Part shown: positions 3,047 through 46,716 of the stretch, in pieces
How the letters are laid out: every line of letters starts with the position of its first letter
Position numbering within the stretch: the first letter of the stretch is position 1
Source of the DNA: an uncultured virus (IMG/VR IMGVR_UViG_3300021256_000009)
Taxonomy: Duplodnaviria; Heunggongvirae; Uroviricota; Caudoviricetes
Virus record (IMG/VR): IMGVR_UViG_3300021256_000009
Direction: 5' to 3' (one strand)
DNA: 64,000 nt
Notes under the pieces: model-generated
What the model saw: only the letters and a program-made list of their open reading frames with translations
What the model was told of the DNA's origin: nothing
The model's database searches: none
Made by a program: the position numbers and the translations under genes

Positions 3047-3346
3047 ATGGGTTGCTTGACCGTCACATACACGCGGCTCGGCGGTATCTCCGTTGGCGCG
3101 GAACGGGTGGGAGGAATATCCTGCTCGGCTACCCGCTTCGGGGGCGTGGACGCAACGGCACAAAGGGTCGGCGGTATTGACGCAAGCATGGAGAGAGTAG
3201 GAGGAATGACTTGTCGCTTCTCCCTTATCTGCTCCACGGGCATCGTCCCTCCGTACCTTGAAATCAATCCCGAAATCATCTGGGTTTACACTGATTGGTC
3301 GGCGCAGAACGAAGTCCTGTCCAACACAAGATGGAATGTTGATTAA
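3047..3346 (+). CDS. Repeat protein ending in the N-terminal half of a BACON-like domain
   Basis: Five 10-aa R-x-G-G repeats, then YLEINPEII...VLSNTRWNVD*. Confidence 0.7.
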   Translation: MGCLTVTYTRLGGISVGAERVGGISCSATRFGGVDATAQRVGGIDASMERVGGMTCRFSLICSTGIVPPYLEINPEIIWVYTDWSAQNEVLSNTRWNVD

Positions 3347-33833: not shown

Positions 33834-33917
33834 CACTCGATTTAACCACCGCCCCACCCGTTCGCGGGCAGGGCACGCACCGAGCCTGAGGCCTGTTTAT
33901 ACTCGCTCGGTCGAGTG
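33834..33917 (-). ncRNA. Candidate three-way-junction RNA element
   Basis: CACTCGA/TCGAGTG, CCGAGC/GCTCGG, and a 10-bp hairpin with G.U pairs on the - strand. Confidence 0.5.
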
Positions 33918-34294: not shown

Positions 34295-34354
34295 TGTTTC
34301 AATCGTTCAGTATTGCGCCCCTGTTCCCGGTTTAAGTTAATAAATAGTGATTCG

Positions 34355-34438
34355 TTCGGCCTATTGGATTCGAACCAATATCCCGAAAAGCCGTTCATGT
34401 CCAATTGCTTTGCACCCACAAATCCAATTGTAGGCCGT
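34355..34438 (-). ncRNA. tRNA-like acceptor plus T-arm element
   Basis: ATTGG-TTCGAAT-CCAAT T-arm followed by AGGCCGA, which can pair with upstream CGGCTT or CGGCCT. Confidence 0.45.
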
Positions 34439-35142
34439 ACCGAATTTACGCGCTTTTGGACATCGTTTGCCGTTCGTTACCAGCCGGATATAATTCCGGC
34501 TATTGTTCTATTCGTGGATACTTCGCCAAATCCGTATTCGTTTGCGCTCAATTTGGCCGTGGCTTATTAAGATTTATACTTTTCGCCCCTTTTATCCGTA
34601 TATTTGATTTTTTTCTAATATCATTTCGGATACATTGGGAATTATCAAAAAACCCTATTTTGAAGATTTACAAAAGGAATTATTAAAGAATTTAATAAAT
34701 TCAGGTGCTCTCGATACAATTATAATTCGTGTGCTTTTGGCGGTTACTTACTTTATATTTTCTAACTTTTGGCCGTTACATAGGCCGATACCAAACGATA
34801 CGGAAAAAGCCCCTTTTGAGGTTTTTTCGGTAACTTTTACACAAAAACCGAAAAAGGATTACATTTATTGTATTTGTCCCGATTTACGAAAAATCCATAC
34901 ATTTACAAAACCCTCGTTTGCACTTTTTCGGATGTCCATATATCCCTATATGTATCTACCACGATTTACTAAAAATCCATGTAGGCAATTGGTGACCTTT
35001 GCACCCTTATAACCTTTACACTTCCAATATTTTCAATGAGCGTGCACCCCTTATCGGCCTATGCCTCAAATCCCGTGCAAATCGTCTAACAGTGTCCGCG
35101 TGCAACCCTTAACCCTCAAATCCTTTTCCCTTGTTGCTGTTG

Positions 35143-35150
35143 CAAAGTTA
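35143..35150 (-). promoter_or_regulatory. Bacteroidota -7 promoter element
   Basis: TAACTTTG on - strand, pointing at the leftward array. Confidence 0.45.
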
Positions 35151-35608
35151 CGGCAACTTTATGCAATTTACAGCCTAAATTGCGCAAAATTGCGCCACAA
35201 AACGCGCAAAGTTTATAACGCGCTGACTATTAAGCATTTAGCATATATACGCGTGTGCGTACCTTATAAAAGCAAAAAATCCCGCTTTATAAGTGTACGA
35301 AATACACTTTTCCCGGATCCCGTACCAGCCGGATTTTGTTGCACAAAAAATATTATGTTAAGTTTGGCGCGCGAGGTGTACTACCTTGCTAATACACTAA
35401 TACACCATTTTATAAGTGTATTTTTGACACTTGCAAATAGAAAACGACCGTTTTTTTCTTATAAGCGCTTAAAAATCAAAGCCCTATGGAGGGGGACAAC
35501 CCCTACCCACGGGACGAAACCAGGGTGAGATTCTGAAATTTTTTATTTTTTTTTTTCTGAGACGGCGCCCGTAGCACGGTTTTTGTTAAGCCGGTGCGCT
35601 CTTGGTTT

Positions 35609-35900
35609 ATGTAGCCAAATGTAGCGCGAAAATGAAATACTTACCTTCCTTCACAGCAACTACATTCTGTAACTTATTCTTTTATAATATATTGTAGTAT
35701 TATGTAGTTTTATGTAATTAGGTATTAATTAAATAACATTATAAAGTAAGTAGGGTATAAGGAGGAGTACAATACGAGGGTATTCCTGGAAAATCAACTA
35801 CATTTCCTACATACAACTACATAAATCATGTCCAACGGCTTGGTTTTCAGCGGGATGTAGTTATGTAGTTTCTTATGTAGTTTCTACATGAAAACTACAT
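35609..35900. repeat. Iteron-like ATGTAG(TT) array, candidate origin
   Basis: 12 exact ATGTAG/CTACAT hexamers (8 extend to ATGTAGTT/AACTACAT) in both orientations around an AT-rich core. Confidence 0.75.
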
Positions 35901-38495: not shown

Positions 38496-38511
38496 TGGCA
38501 CGGGATTTGCA
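38496..38511 (+). promoter_or_regulatory. Sigma54-type -24/-12 promoter motif (exact consensus)
   Basis: TGGCACG-GGAT-TTGCA immediately after the dut stop, upstream of ATG 38549. Confidence 0.7.
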
Positions 38512-38548: not shown

Positions 38549-38848
38549 ATGAGTAAGTTCAAGTGTGGCCAGCATGTCTGGCTTTTCAACAGCCTCTCGA
38601 TGCGTATCGAGGAGGATGATGTGTACGGCGCTTTGTATGTGCCCGTTCCGGTGGAAGGAGTCCAGCAGGACAGCGGCAAGAGCATTGCCGAGAAGCTGGA
38701 GGCCGGCCAGATGAAGGTGCAGGAGCAGTATCAGCTGTGCGGTCATCAGGGAATCGTCGACGCCGAGGTTCTGTTCGCTAGCCGCGAGGAGTGCGTCGCC
38801 TGGTATAAGGAGTTCTTCGACCGTGGCGGTGCCTTCGTAGGCGAATAG
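38549..38848 (+). CDS. Hypothetical protein
   Basis: KFKCGQHVW...VLFASREE; resembles 49888. Confidence 0.75.
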   Translation: MSKFKCGQHVWLFNSLSMRIEEDDVYGALYVPVPVEGVQQDSGKSIAEKLEAGQMKVQEQYQLCGHQGIVDAEVLFASREECVAWYKEFFDRGGAFVGE

Positions 38849-38855
38849 CGGGATT

Positions 38856-38916
38856 TCGCGGGTAGCTCAGTGGCCAGAGCTGTACATGGTCGTGGGTTCG
38901 AATCCCACCCCGCGAG
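38856..38916 (+). ncRNA. tRNA-like RNA lacking the anticodon arm
   Basis: 7-bp acceptor TCGCGGG/CCCGCGA, TA, D-arm GCTC/GAGC, 11-nt linker, T-arm GTGGG-TTCGAAT-CCCAC. Confidence 0.8.
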
Positions 38917-38920
38917 CGAA

Positions 38921-39235
38921 GATTATCCAAACCGCAAATGCCCGGTTAAGGAGCCGGGCGGAGTGAAAAGCTCCTGTAGGATGGATAGTTGTTCTGTTTG
39001 CTAACCAATGACCCTGGTTCGGCGGGAGTTGCGCCAGGGTCCAAAAAACCCGCAGTGATGCGCATAGGACTGAGGTCATTAGTTTTGTGTTTATTAGTTT
39101 GCAAGGGCGGATTCGGAGGGATCCGGGTCCGTCCGCCAGGAGCGCTAAGGGGTACGGCGCGAACGAGAAAATACAGACTGGTCAGACAGGGGGTACCCAC
39201 CTTTCTTCGGAGAGGCCCTGTTTGTCCAGTCTTTT
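38921..39235 (+). ncRNA. Candidate structured RNA array with pseudoknots
   Basis: Multiple G.U-containing stems and two putative pseudoknots. Confidence 0.6.
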
Positions 39236-39258
39236 GTACTGAAAAAACCGCAAGTTTT

Positions 39259-40755
39259 GTGAAGTATGGTGATATCATAGACTATCTATGCTCGACGGCT
39301 GGGCCATCGCTCCAAGACGCCGGCTTGAGCGACGATAGGGTTAATAAGCGGACGGAGGCTCTCATGGCGATGGACTTCCGTAGGTACATTTGCGGCATCG
39401 ACGGGGATGAGGGGAACGATTTCTTCAAGGTGGACGAGGACGGGATGCTCTATGTGTACAACGGCAGGTATTTTGAACTCATGCTGGAGGAGACCTTGCT
39501 TGAGCTGATCATCGTCGTAATGGAGAAATGCAATGTCGGCATCGTATATCGGACCGGCTCGGCGAAAATCATCAAGGATTTCGTGATGAACCGTCTGAAG
39601 GGCGACGAGAGGTGTAAATTCGAGCCGGACAGGCGCTATATTTGCTTCACGAATGGTGTTTTGGACCTGAAGACGATGCGTTTGATGCCGTTTTCGGTGA
39701 AGTATAAGACGGATATTGTCCTGGATTTCGACTATGTTGCCAGTGCCAAATCGGCATTGTGGGACAAGGTTTTGGGCCAGACGGTTCCTGACGAGAGCAT
39801 GAGGGAGACATTCCACCAGTTTTGCGGGTGTTTCCTGGCGGACCGGAAGGAATACAAGATCGAGTACATCTGCTTCGTGGTCGGCGAAGGCCAGAACGGC
39901 AAGAGTATCATCTGCAAGGCCGTAATCAACATGCTTGGACACGATGTAGCGAGCTCATATTCTCCCGAGCAGCTGTTCAAGAGTTCCCAGATGGAGTACC
40001 ATCTTGCTGATGTCAATGGAAAGGTCGTGAATTACTGCGACGAGGTGTCGAACAAGGACTTTTCCGGCGGCGATTTCAAGCAATTCGTATCCGGCGGCGC
40101 CTTCACGGGCCGTCATCCATACTCAAAGAGACCTACGAAGGTGGACAAGATTCCTCTGATGTTGTGTTGCGCGAACAAGATTCCGCCGACGACAGACGAC
40201 ACAGAGGGGTATTTCCGCCGTTTTTTGATTATATTGGCTCCGAATCACATTGATGACCGCGACAAGGACCCGATGCTAGAGATGAAGTTGAAGGCTCCGG
40301 AGGTGAAGTCTGCGATTTTCAGCTGGATGCTGGAAGGGTACAAGACTTTCATAGCGAACGAGGGGAAGATTGACATTGCTTCCGCCGTGAAGGAGGTTGT
40401 CGAGGAGATGAAGGAGAATTCGAACTCTTTGCGCCGCTGGATCTCGACCATGGGCTATGTAGCCGCTGAGGATCCGGAGAGTTGGAGTGCCCCCGGGTGG
40501 AAATCCCTCAAGGAATGGGTCCAGGAGTATATCAACTACTGCAAGGATTGGGGTGAAACGCCTCGCTCTCGCTCGGCGGTTACCGAGATGTTCAAGAAGA
40601 TGGGAGTGTTGAGCAAGAGAAGGACCGATGGTGTGTGGTACTACATGGAGCAGCGGGCCGTGGAGGTGGAAAAAGAGGAGAAGGAGAAGAGCTCTGTGAA
40701 GACTGCGCTTGAAGACCTGCCTCCAGAGGATGATATGGAAAATCTGCCGTTCTGA
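39259..40755 (+). CDS. P4/D5-family SF3 helicase (primase-associated)
   Basis: ICFTNGVLDL (D5_N-like), GEGQNGKS Walker A, NYCDE Walker B, CAN..P...D...YFRR; start GTG 39259 or ATG 39364. Confidence 0.88.
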   Translation: MKYGDIIDYLCSTAGPSLQDAGLSDDRVNKRTEALMAMDFRRYICGIDGDEGNDFFKVDEDGMLYVYNGRYFELMLEETLLELIIVVMEKCNVGIVYRTGSAKIIKDFVMNRLKGDERCKFEPDRRYICFTNGVLDLKTMRLMPFSVKYKTDIVLDFDYVASAKSALWDKVLGQTVPDESMRETFHQFCGCFLADRKEYKIEYICFVVGEGQNGKSIICKAVINMLGHDVASSYSPEQLFKSSQMEYHLADVNGKVVNYCDEVSNKDFSGGDFKQFVSGGAFTGRHPYSKRPTKVDKIPLMLCCANKIPPTTDDTEGYFRRFLIILAPNHIDDRDKDPMLEMKLKAPEVKSAIFSWMLEGYKTFIANEGKIDIASAVKEVVEEMKENSNSLRRWISTMGYVAAEDPESWSAPGWKSLKEWVQEYINYCKDWGETPRSRSAVTEMFKKMGVLSKRRTDGVWYYMEQRAVEVEKEEKEKSSVKTALEDLPPEDDMENLPF

Positions 40756-40756
40756 T

Positions 40757-41668
40757 ATGGGAAAGGAAGACAAATACCGTGGAATGTATGATCCGGTGGC
40801 GACGATGCAGAATGTGCCGGCGCTGCTCGGGATGGAACTGGTCAAACATGGCCAGGGACTGCAGGGCGGGTACTACTTGAATGGAGACCGCCATGCCTAT
40901 AGAAGGGATAAGTTAAAGGTTTTCATCAGCCGTGGCTGCATCTGGGTGAGTGAGGAGGGGGGACGTTGCGTGTCACTTCCTCAGTGGTTGATCGAGTTCG
41001 GAGGCGCAAGCGATTTCAAGGATGCGCTGAGGATTATCAACGGGAAGCCCCAGGCAATCGAGTGGAACCGCGAGTTCCGAGAGAAGGTTGCTCCGAAGGT
41101 GCAGTATGTGTCACCTGATGTGCTGGAAGGAGCGAAGCAGTATCCTTTAGAGAGCTGCACGTTGTTCCGGTGGATGGCGCGTCTTTTTGGGGATGATAAG
41201 GTCCGGAAGGTTTGGAATGCATACAATGTCACCGCGACAAGCAAAGGAGGCGCATGCTTCTGGTATCTGAATCCGTCTGGGCAGATATGCCACGATAAAA
41301 TCGTATTTTATGGAGAAGACGGCCACCGTATAAAGACCATGCCAATGGGAAGGAAATATAGGATTGGCGACGGCTATACGGAAAACCCTATGTTTGGGAG
41401 CCATTTCAAGAACAAGCCGAAGGGAATACTGGAGTCCGAAAAGAGTGCGTTGATGGCCTCTTGCTACTACGGAGGCGTATGGCTTGCAACTGGTGGGAAG
41501 GGAAATTTGAGAGACCCTGGCGGAATTCCCCTTTACGCAGATAGGGATGCAGAGGAAATATGGTCCGCGAAGGGTGACTGCGTTGACTGGTACAGTGACT
41601 GGCCGGAATGTGGAGAACACAGCGATTTGGGTGATAAAATTGAATGGCTATGTGTATCTGGCCGGTAA
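40757..41668 (+). CDS. Primase-like protein (DUF6371/Toprim-like)
   Basis: FWY.N..G.ICHDK..Y..DGHR, ILESEKSAL, WLATGG, YADRD, DLGD. Confidence 0.7.
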   Translation: MGKEDKYRGMYDPVATMQNVPALLGMELVKHGQGLQGGYYLNGDRHAYRRDKLKVFISRGCIWVSEEGGRCVSLPQWLIEFGGASDFKDALRIINGKPQAIEWNREFREKVAPKVQYVSPDVLEGAKQYPLESCTLFRWMARLFGDDKVRKVWNAYNVTATSKGGACFWYLNPSGQICHDKIVFYGEDGHRIKTMPMGRKYRIGDGYTENPMFGSHFKNKPKGILESEKSALMASCYYGGVWLATGGKGNLRDPGGIPLYADRDAEEIWSAKGDCVDWYSDWPECGEHSDLGDKIEWLCVSGR

Positions 41669-42018
41669 AAGCCTCTGAAAGGCAGTGCAGGTATTGTACT
41701 TATGTCGGATGCGAGCGTCATGCAAACAGGTTAAAGGACAAGAGGGCGAACAGGTATGTGAAGGTGATGTCCGATATAGTTGGGGCGAACATATTGCTCA
41801 AGTCCAGGAAGCAAATCCTTGTATGGGCGCGTAACATGGTCGCATATCAGCTCCGGCTTGACGGCTATTCTCTTCCTGCGATAGGTAGGCTGCTTGACCT
41901 GGACCATTCAACGGTTGTGCATTGCGAGCAACAGGTTAGAAGGATGCTCTTGGCGCCGTCGATGTATGAGGACGAGGCGGAAGTTTGGGAAGAATTCCAG
42001 AAACAATTAAATCAATAG
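41644..42018 (+). CDS. DnaA domain IV-like HTH protein
   Basis: SRKQ..VWAR..VAY...YSLPAIGRLL..DHSTVVH. Confidence 0.8.
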   Translation: MAMCIWPVKASERQCRYCTYVGCERHANRLKDKRANRYVKVMSDIVGANILLKSRKQILVWARNMVAYQLRLDGYSLPAIGRLLDLDHSTVVHCEQQVRRMLLAPSMYEDEAEVWEEFQKQLNQ

Positions 42019-46617: not shown

Positions 46618-46716
46618 GGATGGGTACCTCAGATGGTTAGAGGTCGGGAGGTGGCGAAATTGCGCTGAAATAAGCGCAGCCTTCCGAAGTCGCAGGTTCG
46701 AGTCCTGCTCCGTCCG
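46618..46716 (+). ncRNA. tRNA-like RNA with an enlarged anticodon arm
   Basis: Acceptor GGATGGG/TCCGTCC, D-arm CCTC/GAGG, 8-bp stem enclosing an extra hairpin, T-arm GCAGG-TTCGAGT-CCTGC. Confidence 0.8.

What the first reader, a model, noticed from the sequence alone, without database searches (positions are those of the whole stretch)
38921..39235. Pseudoknot-rich RNA array between the armless tRNA and the helicase gene
Domain A: GATTATCCA/TGGATAGTT enclosing hairpins GCCCGGTT/AGCCGGGC and GGAGT/GCTCC. Domain B: H-type pseudoknot at 39010-39053. Domain C: 13-bp hairpin at 39105-39134. Domain D: hairpin 39142-39160 whose loop GGGTAC can pair with GTACCC (39193-39198), bulged from a long stem (39175-39232) capped by a C-TTCG-G hairpin and followed by a short T-run. 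G.U pairs favour the + strand. It lies downstream of the exact-consensus sigma54 motif. Could be several small RNAs cut from one precursor, or a leader controlling helicase expression.
Basis: partly seen in the sequence, partly recalled or inferred. Interest (0 to 1): 0.7.

Follow-up and report, generated by a model that had tools for sequence, protein, structure and literature searches.

The report
Kissing-loop terminator before phage helicase
In a family of uncultured gut phages, the DNA-helicase gene is preceded by an uncatalogued 100-base folded RNA whose hairpin loop pairs with a bulge in a long stem ending in a predicted transcription stop signal, likely acting as a gate on replication genes; the rest of the stretch is a patchwork of small tRNA-like hairpins.

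Summary
The stretch is real, + strand structured RNA (z -6.9) in a 75-kb gut phage with an inferred Bacteroidota host. It is four separate modules, not one array.

D (39142-39237) is the main result: a hairpin whose 6-nt loop pairs with a bulge in a ~16-bp stem followed by a U-run. It occurs in 44 of 49 testable relatives and 51 distinct copies, all 5' of the D5-family helicase gene. The loop-bulge helix pairs in 269 of 270 cells, five of six pairs covary, and its geometry and strength are held constant. D types swap between near-identical helicases. No Rfam match, antisense promoter or alternative antiterminator helix was found.

Best reading: an attenuator in which the kissing helix forms first and hinders closure of the >1-turn terminator (inferred, untested).

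C (39105-39138) is an alanine-type minihelix (G3.U70, CCA). B is a U-CCA hairpin whose proposed pseudoknot is not conserved. A is a tRNA-adjacent T-loop two-hairpin motif (9 loci). The helicase N-terminal extension is refuted.

The parts
38496..38511 (+). sigma54-type -24/-12 motif (consensus recalled); likely promoter of the small ORF + RNA array in this lineage
   Evidence: similar motif before the same ORF in 14 of 30 loci
38549..38848 (+). 99-aa ORF found across the family upstream of the RNA array; predicted small beta-barrel plus helix (weak Tudor/chromo-like matches only); function unknown
   Evidence: covered by contigs of RNA runs
38856..38916 (+). tRNA-like gene lacking the anticodon arm; replaced by other tRNA-like genes in close relatives
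38921..38990 (+). Domain A: two-hairpin core (38940-38959 with GGA in its loop; 38960-38974 with a 7-nt T-loop-type loop) inside a variable outer stem; directly 3' of a tRNA-like gene in 8 of 9 loci
39012..39043 (+). Domain B: 7-bp stem + 1x1 mismatch + 4-bp hairpin ending in U-CCA (minihelix-like); the proposed H-type pseudoknot to 39049-39053 is possible here but not conserved
39051..39062 (+). CGCA-GTGA-TGCG trailer hairpin that follows tRNA-like genes throughout the family, then a U-rich spacer to 39104
39105..39138 (+). Domain C: 13-bp minihelix with G1-C72, G2-C71, G3.U70, purine 73 and encoded CCA (alanine-type acceptor end)
39142..39160 (+). Domain D P1 hairpin; loop hexamer GGGTAC at 39150-39155
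39161..39175 (+). Domain D purine-rich linker J1/2 (15 nt here; median 14)
39176..39231 (+). Domain D long stem P2 (16-bp span) with bulge GTACCC-A (39193-39199) and capping hairpin P3 (39200-39215)
39232..39239 (+). U-run directly after P2 (5 U of 8): predicted intrinsic terminator tail
   Evidence: at least 5 U of 8 in 48 of 50 copies
39242..39253 (+). Conserved AAAAACCGCA motif between the U-run and the start codon; role unexplained
   Evidence: AACCG in 48 of 50
39259..40755 (+). D5-family helicase (D5_N + DUF5906), start GTG 39259; first gene of the replication module (then DUF6371 at 40757-41668 and a DnaA_C HTH protein at 41644-42018)

Best explanation
The stretch is a tRNA-array tail of three patchily distributed small-RNA modules (A, B, C) followed by a family-wide helicase leader (D), a covarying hairpin-loop/bulge kissing helix built into a long stem with a U-run, which likely works as a transcription attenuator gating the phage replication genes. 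Shown: the fold, its covariation, its fixed geometry, and its single-copy position 17-34 nt before the helicase start. Also shown: its 5' side abuts a promoter motif or a tRNA-like 3' end in 48 of 50 copies. Inferred mechanism: during transcription the bulge strand emerges about 25 nt before the 3' arm of P2, so the 6-bp kissing helix would form first and close P2's 5' arm into a ring. P2 is about 1.5 helical turns and its 3' arm is tethered to RNA polymerase, so it could only zip fully by wrapping the 14-nt linker around itself. The base pairs next to the U-run would be delayed and polymerase would read through into the helicase. When the kiss is late or blocked (elongation kinetics, or a phage or host factor not identified here), the terminator would form and release a ~100-nt RNA. 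C would be cut out as an alanine-type CCA minihelix by host tRNA-processing enzymes, which in this lineage would also set D's 5' end.
For: D lies 5' of the helicase in 44 of 49 testable distinct upstream regions. Six more copies from a DNA-pattern scan and a genome scan are all before the helicase, down to 45% protein identity. One copy per genome in 17 of 17 records. Kissing helix: 269 of 270 cells paired, 5 of 6 pairs with two-sided changes, 0 of 500 shuffles, slid controls far lower; seven hexamer types. Geometry is fixed: bulged A in 47 of 50, linker median 14 nt, P2 span median 16 bp, U-run in 48 of 50. Helix strength is held at 4 G/C in 49 of 50 and -9.5 to -9.8 kcal/mol in 48 of 50, as expected of a tuned switch. 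No other conserved helix exists, so any effect of the kiss on the terminator cannot be base-pair competition. Crude geometry: the kiss can form within one molecule (path ~60 A, linker 77-110 A), and in most parameter sets a kiss-first route leaves the bottom of P2 unclosed (9-15 of 16-18 bp). No internal promoter motif is evident in the aligned copies (alignments, read by eye). An RNA-run contig bridges the small ORF to A-B-C and the first part of D.
Against: No termination, read-through or RNA end was measured; contigs cannot show ends or strand and RNA libraries may hold DNA. The geometric model is crude, and with a favourable phase offset (or a longer linker) full closure of P2 is allowed (16 of 16 bp in several settings). 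No regulator was found: no conserved antisense promoter and no covarying trans partner in 11 genomes. The window's U-run is modest (5 of 8), and the simple terminator scan did not call the bulged stem. Covariation fits an intermolecular or post-termination fold equally well. Five relatives lack D, and L001/L002 carry a ~1.3-kb IS605-like insertion with its own promoter motif between D and the helicase, so adjacency is not essential. Constant helix strength rests on only seven related hexamer types.
Confidence: 0.5

Rival explanations
The helicase would be reached by leak or by a protein antiterminator, as with lambda pR'-6S-tR' (recalled).
For: Own promoter motif in 35 of 50 copies and a tRNA or minihelix 3' end in 13 more, so the 5' end is defined. 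Fixed dimensions. Loop-bulge types are mutually less compatible, cognate about -11 versus non-cognate -2 to -9 kcal/mol. pRNA is listed among natural branched kissing loops (PMC8457670 passages).
Against: A free-standing RNA need not stay 17-34 nt from one gene in every copy while everything upstream is reshuffled. The constant 35-40 nt spacing of loop and bulge and the geometry allow pairing within one molecule. No antiterminator gene was identified.
Confidence: 0.22
2. D is a translational operator: the transcript reads through, and the folded element nucleates binding of the helicase, primase or another replication protein over the adjacent start region, as the T4 gene 32 pseudoknot does.
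For: Pseudoknot directly 5' of a replication gene with a short AU-rich start region; invariant motif before the start codon. T4 gene 32 precedent (PMC10690425 passage).
Against: The U-run starts exactly at the stem base in 48 of 50 copies, the signature of a terminator. D type is uncoupled from helicase sequence: L010/L030 have 96.9% identical helicases but 53% identical D, and L012/L069 have 52% identical helicases and 74% identical D. L001/L002 keep D 1.3 kb away from the start codon.
Confidence: 0.12
3. D is a riboswitch whose kissing junction binds a small ligand (nucleotide-like) that stabilises the kiss and promotes read-through.
For: THF, ZTP and c-di-GMP-II riboswitches contain branched kissing loops (PMC8457670 passages). 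The few near-invariant bases cluster at the kissing junction.
Against: Five of six kissing pairs and nearly all stem pairs vary freely, there is no overlapping expression platform, and no Rfam riboswitch matches even at E up to 10.
Confidence: 0.08
4. D is a processing or replication signal: an RNase III-type long stem that matures the helicase mRNA, or a primer or origin structure.
For: P2+P3 give about 22 bp of near-continuous duplex; the element is tied to the replication gene.
Against: Neither role explains a covarying kiss of fixed strength or a stem-adjacent U-run. G.U far exceeds A.C, pointing to RNA on one strand, and the GC-skew switch lies about 4 kb upstream.
Confidence: 0.06
5. The region encodes an N-terminal extension of the helicase (open frame from 38989).
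For: The frame is open for 90 codons upstream of GTG 39259 in the window.
Against: A stop closes the frame within D in 29 of 44 loci, and after 39 codons in the 99%-identical L005. Protein conservation starts at 39259, with GTG, ATG or TTG at that position.
Confidence: 0.01

Closest known systems
Branched kissing loop (bKL) motif (Liu et al., Sci Adv 2021, PMC8457670; passages read)
   Same: [quoted passage not shown]
   Different: Here it is built into a terminator-like stem in a phage replication leader; none of the 14 natural examples named in the passages read has that context.
Phage P4 immunity (CI RNA, seqA/seqC) controlling premature termination before replication genes (PMC4825925 passage)
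   Same: RNA-RNA pairing in a leader tied to transcription termination upstream of replication genes; the downstream gene's distant cultured relatives are annotated as P4 alpha-like primases.
   Different: No separate processed antisense RNA or second downstream target was found; pairing is 6-7 bp and geometrically possible in cis.
Plasmid rep control: pT181/pIP501 antisense attenuators and the ColIb-P9 repZ pseudoknot/Inc RNA (PMC8383071 passages)
   Same: Loop-mediated long-range pairing and a terminator in the leader of a replication gene; exchangeable specificity types.
   Different: No conserved antisense promoter, no mutually exclusive helices, and no sequestered ribosome-binding site.
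Fluoride and ZTP transcriptional riboswitches (pseudoknot versus terminator; bioRxiv 10.1101/2023.12.05.570056 abstract start and passages)
   Same: A pseudoknot formed co-transcriptionally upstream of an intrinsic terminator; topological twist matters for switching.
   Different: There the terminator invades the pseudoknot by strand displacement; in D the two share no bases, and no ligand core is evident.
T4 gene 32 translational operator pseudoknot (PMC10690425 passage)
   Same: Pseudoknot directly 5' of a phage replication gene.
   Different: D has a long stem with a U-run and swaps independently of the protein.
Synthetic tRNA-Ala minihelix (identity set in PMC9976931 passages), for domain C
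   Same: G2-C71, G3.U70, encoded CCA, A73 in L002 and L009, 13-bp hairpin.
   Different: Natural, phage-encoded, 4-nt loop instead of a T-loop, C4-G69 instead of G4-C69, and G73 in the window and L005.

Membership tests
Any Rfam 15 family (D, A, B, C) | Match to a covariance model | tested here: not met
   No hit in 38917-39260 at gathering or at E up to 10; none over homologous A/B/C/D in L029 and L009 or in 16 loci
Branched kissing loop (D) | [quoted passage not shown] | tested here: met
   269 of 270 cells paired, 5 of 6 pairs compensatory
Branched kissing loop (D) | Short unpaired linker (A) 3' of the bulge strand | tested here: met
   A in 47 of 50
Branched kissing loop (D) | Coaxial stack of hairpin, kissing helix and 3' helix | not testable with these tools
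   Inferred from PMC8457670; no RNA 3D tool
Intrinsic terminator (D) | Stable stem followed at once by a U-rich tail | tested here: met
   At least 5 U of 8 in 48 of 50; the two lower values are parsing failures
Intrinsic terminator (D) | RNA 3' ends at the U-run | not testable with these tools
   Only contigs of RNA runs were available
Antisense-controlled rep attenuator (pT181/pIP501, Inc/repZ) | Counter-transcribed RNA with its own promoter | tested here: not met
   A minus-strand -7 motif within 700 nt in 1 of 11 genomes, not conserved (G010 only ~300 nt available); other promoter types not excluded
Antisense-controlled rep attenuator (pT181/pIP501, Inc/repZ) | Mutually exclusive terminator/antiterminator helices | tested here: not met
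   Only P2, P3 and the kissing helix passed the conserved-helix scan; no alternative helix did
P4 CI-type immunity | Trans RNA with complementary targets both upstream and downstream | tested here: inconclusive
   One upstream 6-nt complement only; no covarying site elsewhere in 11 genomes by exact match; imperfect or host partners untested
Riboswitch | Conserved ligand-contacting nucleotides and ligand response | tested here: inconclusive
   About a dozen bases at 90% or more near the junction; ligand binding not testable
T4 gene 32-type operator | Binding and repression by the downstream protein | not testable with these tools
   Position fits; D type uncoupled from helicase sequence
tRNA-Ala minihelix (C) | G3.U70 and G2-C71 in a 7-bp acceptor stem with CCA | tested here: met
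   4 of 4 DNA copies
tRNA-Ala minihelix (C) | A73 and G4-C69 | tested here: inconclusive
   A73 in 2 of 4 copies and in the RNA contig, G73 in the window and L005; C4-G69 in all, so G4-C69 is not met
tRNA-Ala minihelix (C) | Aminoacylation by AlaRS | not testable with these tools
   -
H-type pseudoknot (B) | Second stem kept in homologs | tested here: not met
   No equivalent G/C-rich loop-downstream pairing in L009, L029 or L055; its 3' strand overlaps the trailer hairpin
Known self-cleaving ribozymes (A, B) | Match to hammerhead, HDV, twister, twister-sister, pistol or hatchet models | tested here: not met
   the only ribozyme hit is a pistol at 33844-33916

The most novel reading that the evidence does not exclude
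D is a topological attenuator: a natural gene switch in which a kissing loop stops a terminator not by competing for its bases but by closing the terminator's 5' arm into a ring that the polymerase-tethered 3' arm cannot thread. The 6-nt loop/bulge codes act as exchangeable specificity cassettes for phage replication control.
Probability: 0.3. Interest if true: 0.87.

Novelty: new variant of a known kind. Interest (0 to 1): 0.68.

Why it matters
D is a new, well-supported RNA motif family controlling access to a phage replication operon, with no Rfam match and none found in the literature searches listed. In known attenuators and transcriptional riboswitches the competing structures share bases; here the pseudoknot and terminator do not. 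If the kiss changes read-through, it would show that co-transcriptional topology alone can switch a gene, which is directly testable with a 130-nt template and offers six natural, mutually less compatible loop/bulge codes for synthetic biology. The swapping of D types between near-identical helicases suggests selection on replication-control specificity in gut phages. Separately, C is a natural alanine-type minihelix, a candidate anticodon-less tRNA decoy or amino-acid carrier.

Tried and rejected
Rfam scans at gathering and E-value thresholds gave nothing for A-D; ARAGORN found no gene in the window.

A trans or antisense partner for D: exact 10-13-mers and 9-mer loop complements in 11 genomes were scattered and not conserved.

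The idea that A is a decoy for the ACCGCA motif before the helicase start was dropped, because L012, L029, L055 and L056 have A without that motif.

The pattern scan for A was mis-specified (it does not match the window itself) and gave one chance hit. The C-type scan gave 120 loci, of which only four records of the window clade and L009 had the 13-bp stem. The group-II D scan gave 120 loci; 100 were tested with the model and only four already known records matched. Three of the eight new hits (L117, L120, L126) were chance matches without the architecture.

Cultured distant phages (LoVEphage, PF672P2, Dulem virus 40; 27-32% helicase identity) lack D.

No contig of the RNA runs covered the helicase 5' region or ran through D's stem, in the window or in L009. 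This is absence of cover in contigs and is not used as evidence.

The small ORF as a candidate regulator: confident model (pLDDT 93) but no Pfam or PDB sequence match, only weak Tudor/chromo-like fold matches and uncharacterised phage proteins. The wide structural search could not be run.

In one search I set the P2 register two columns off, so only its kissing-helix count (99.6%) is usable. The careful tree did not finish; the quick tree was used. Fremin et al. 2023 candidates upstream of D5-type genes (DNAVirus_2721, _4940) come from other hosts and habitats; their alignment archives and PDFs could not be searched.

Full report
Context. The window is the first 64 kb of a complete 75,225-bp phage record with direct terminal repeats. 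Portal, terminase, head protein, endolysin and a serine recombinase are present; no repressor or partition gene was recognised. The gene after the finding is a D5-family helicase (D5_N + DUF5906), followed by DUF6371 and a DnaA_C HTH protein. A Bacteroidota host is inferred from TAnnTTTG-type promoter motifs (consensus recalled) and from the nearest cultured relatives, Parabacteroides and Bacteroides phages at 27-28% identity. One laid RNA run with a matching contig is labelled bovine gut.

Observation. Every helix named is present. The region folds at -145 kcal/mol, z -6.94 on + and -3.45 on -; each domain is individually significant. No Rfam family matches.

Relatives. Helicase searches gave 27, 52, 30 and 1 loci, many the same contigs. 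I dropped duplicates, loci lacking the helicase N-terminus, and one 26%-identity hit. That left 51 distinct upstream regions: 43 with D directly upstream, one type (L001/L002) with D 1.3 kb upstream behind an IS605-like insertion, two cut by contig ends but holding D's 3' part, and five without D (L025, L026, L059, L062, L077). So D is present in 44 of 49 testable regions. A DNA-pattern scan independent of the protein gave 18 loci: 10 known records, 3 chance matches, and 5 new D copies, each directly before the helicase at 45-66% identity. L112 adds one more. D is single-copy in 17 of 17 records. A, B and C are patchy, and everything upstream of D is reshuffled among relatives.

D, structure. 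P1 (at least 5 bp in 49 of 50), loop hexamer, linker (median 14 nt), P2 (median span 16 bp; two parsing failures), bulge hexamer plus A (47 of 50), P3, U-run (at least 5 of 8 in 48 of 50). An unguided pass (minimum-energy fold, then best complement among unpaired bases) found the loop-bulge pair in 29 of 45 copies. An anchored search that required at least 5 of 6 matches found it in all 45, perfect in 43, at 35-40 nt spacing; by my arithmetic a perfect hexamer complement in such a window arises by chance in about 1-2% of sequences. On the MAFFT alignment the kissing helix pairs in 269 of 270 cells, with two-sided changes at 5 of 6 pairs, while slid controls pair 37-51%. The P1 and P3 counts there are depressed because the second D subgroup is shifted by two columns. 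P2 has 76 G.U against 11 A.C cells. The hexamer has four G/C in 49 of 50 and the duplex energy is -9.5 to -9.8 kcal/mol in 48 of 50, though only seven related types underlie this. The layout matches the branched kissing loop defined in PMC8457670 (passages read; also PMC8880383 passages). No other conserved helix exists.

D, context. Directly 5' of D lies a housekeeping promoter motif in 35 of 50 copies, a tRNA-like end in 10, minihelix C in 3 and neither by my test in 2. The U-run begins 17-34 nt before the start codon, with a conserved AACCG motif between (48 of 50). On the quick helicase tree the types need 14 changes where 7 is the minimum. L010 and L030 have 96.9% identical helicases and 53% identical D; L012 and L069 have 52% and 74%. 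D types are therefore exchanged as cassettes. No conserved antisense promoter or exact trans partner was found in 11 genomes. The N-terminal extension is refuted: the frame closes within D in 29 of 44 loci.

Mechanism (inferred). The helicase can be transcribed only through D, and D ends like a terminator, so D is most simply a gate. Because the kiss shares no bases with the terminator, I propose a kinetic and topological effect. The bulge is made about 25 nt before P2's 3' arm (truncation series), so the kiss forms first and P2's 5' arm is locked in a ring. A 1.5-turn helix whose other strand is attached to polymerase then needs the linker to wrap around it. A crude model gives a 60-A direct path against a 77-110-A linker, so the final fold is possible in cis. 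Kiss-first closure stops at 9-15 bp in most settings but reaches full length in the favourable-phase settings. This is suggestive only. A precedent for twist mattering in pseudoknot-terminator switching is in bioRxiv 10.1101/2023.12.05.570056 (passages). What toggles the gate is not identified; the family-wide 99-aa ORF is a candidate without support. I give 0.5 to attenuation by the kiss and 0.3 to the topological step itself.

A, B, C. A was found in 9 loci by a model built from 7, directly after a tRNA-like 3' end in 8 of them. Two adjacent hairpins, one with GGA in the loop and one with a T-loop-type heptaloop (motif name recalled), are kept with different stems; the outer stem and ACCGCA are not. 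It may mimic a tRNA elbow (speculation). B folds as 7 bp + 1x1 mismatch + 4-5 bp and ends in U-CCA in both the window clade and L009, with four of seven acceptor pairs exchanged. B-position hairpins in L029 and L055 lack the CCA, which weakens the minihelix reading. The proposed second stem is not kept, and its 3' strand overlaps the CGCA-GTGA-TGCG hairpin that trails tRNA-like genes across the family. C is a 13-bp hairpin with G1-C72, G2-C71, G3.U70 and R-CCA in 4 of 4 copies from two lineages, and all its changes keep pairing. The bacterial alanine identity set is A73, G2-C71, G3.U70, G4-C69 (PMC9976931 passages); C meets two fully, A73 in half, and not G4-C69. Hairpin-plus-NCCA hits upstream of D numbered 13 against 1-9 in 20 shuffles, a modest excess driven by these same elements.

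Expression. Contigs of RNA runs X1, X2, X4, X5, X7 and X8 cover the small ORF (runs were found with this stretch). One 648-nt contig in X4 bridges 38558-38828, 122 other bases, and 38922-39176. Contigs show neither ends nor strand, a contig across genes does not prove one transcript, and DNA may be present.

Literature. Nine full-text searches returned no description of this element. Fremin et al. 2023 (PMC10690425): main-text passages and supplementary files 3-6 were searched without a sequence or context match; the zip archives and PDFs holding alignments could not be read and may bear on novelty. Comparisons with P4 CI RNA and with plasmid rep control rest on review passages. Earlier unchecked notes of this scan describe similar promoter-kiss-terminator leaders and CCA minihelices in other phages; none shares sequence with this one, and I did not test them.

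Verdict. A real, uncatalogued, strongly covarying helicase-leader motif of a gut phage family, most likely an attenuator of an unusual non-overlapping design, plus tRNA-array modules including an alanine-type minihelix. Function is untested. Interest 0.68.

Noticed in passing
window 33844-33916 (-): Pistol ribozyme, 57 bits against a gathering score of 34.5, just downstream of a 121-aa ORF at the start of the leftward gene arm.
   Followed up: no
window 46618-46716 (+): Second odd tRNA-like gene with a 32-nt anticodon-arm insert; relatives carry many tRNA-like genes with missing or swollen anticodon arms.
   Followed up: no
window 38496, 10912, 42796 (+); 28088, 24976 (-): Several sigma54-type motifs in the genome; the one before the 99-aa ORF is kept in 14 of 30 loci, suggesting phage use of host sigma54.
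   Followed up: partly
window 38549-38848: Family-wide small beta-barrel protein (40 distinct close homologs) upstream of the RNA array, repeatedly seen in RNA-run contigs; no family or function found.
   Followed up: partly
L002 2706-4000 (also L001): IS605-like (tnpB-type, judged by eye) insertion between D's AAAAACCGCA motif and the helicase start, with a promoter motif at its left end and a CCGCAG-containing segment before the GTG.
   Followed up: partly
L013 206-617: Phage-encoded tmRNA in the same array.
   Followed up: no
L010 ~3160-3200, L012 ~1245, L009 ~3745, L052 ~2300: Recurrent GACAGCCGG(G)AAAGAC(C)GGC-type hairpin just before tRNA genes; no Rfam hit.
   Followed up: no
L025/L059 ~250 nt before the helicase: The clade lacking D has instead a promoter motif followed by a long GC-rich RNA ending in a tRNA T-arm directly before the helicase.
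   Followed up: no
L077 ~1595-1715: GGTGAC-repeat-rich long stem about 800 nt upstream of the helicase in a relative lacking D, which also has a sigma54-type motif and ACCGCAA right before the start codon.
   Followed up: no
window 34300-35900: Gene-poor divergence point with the GC-skew switch; candidate origin or control region.
   Followed up: no
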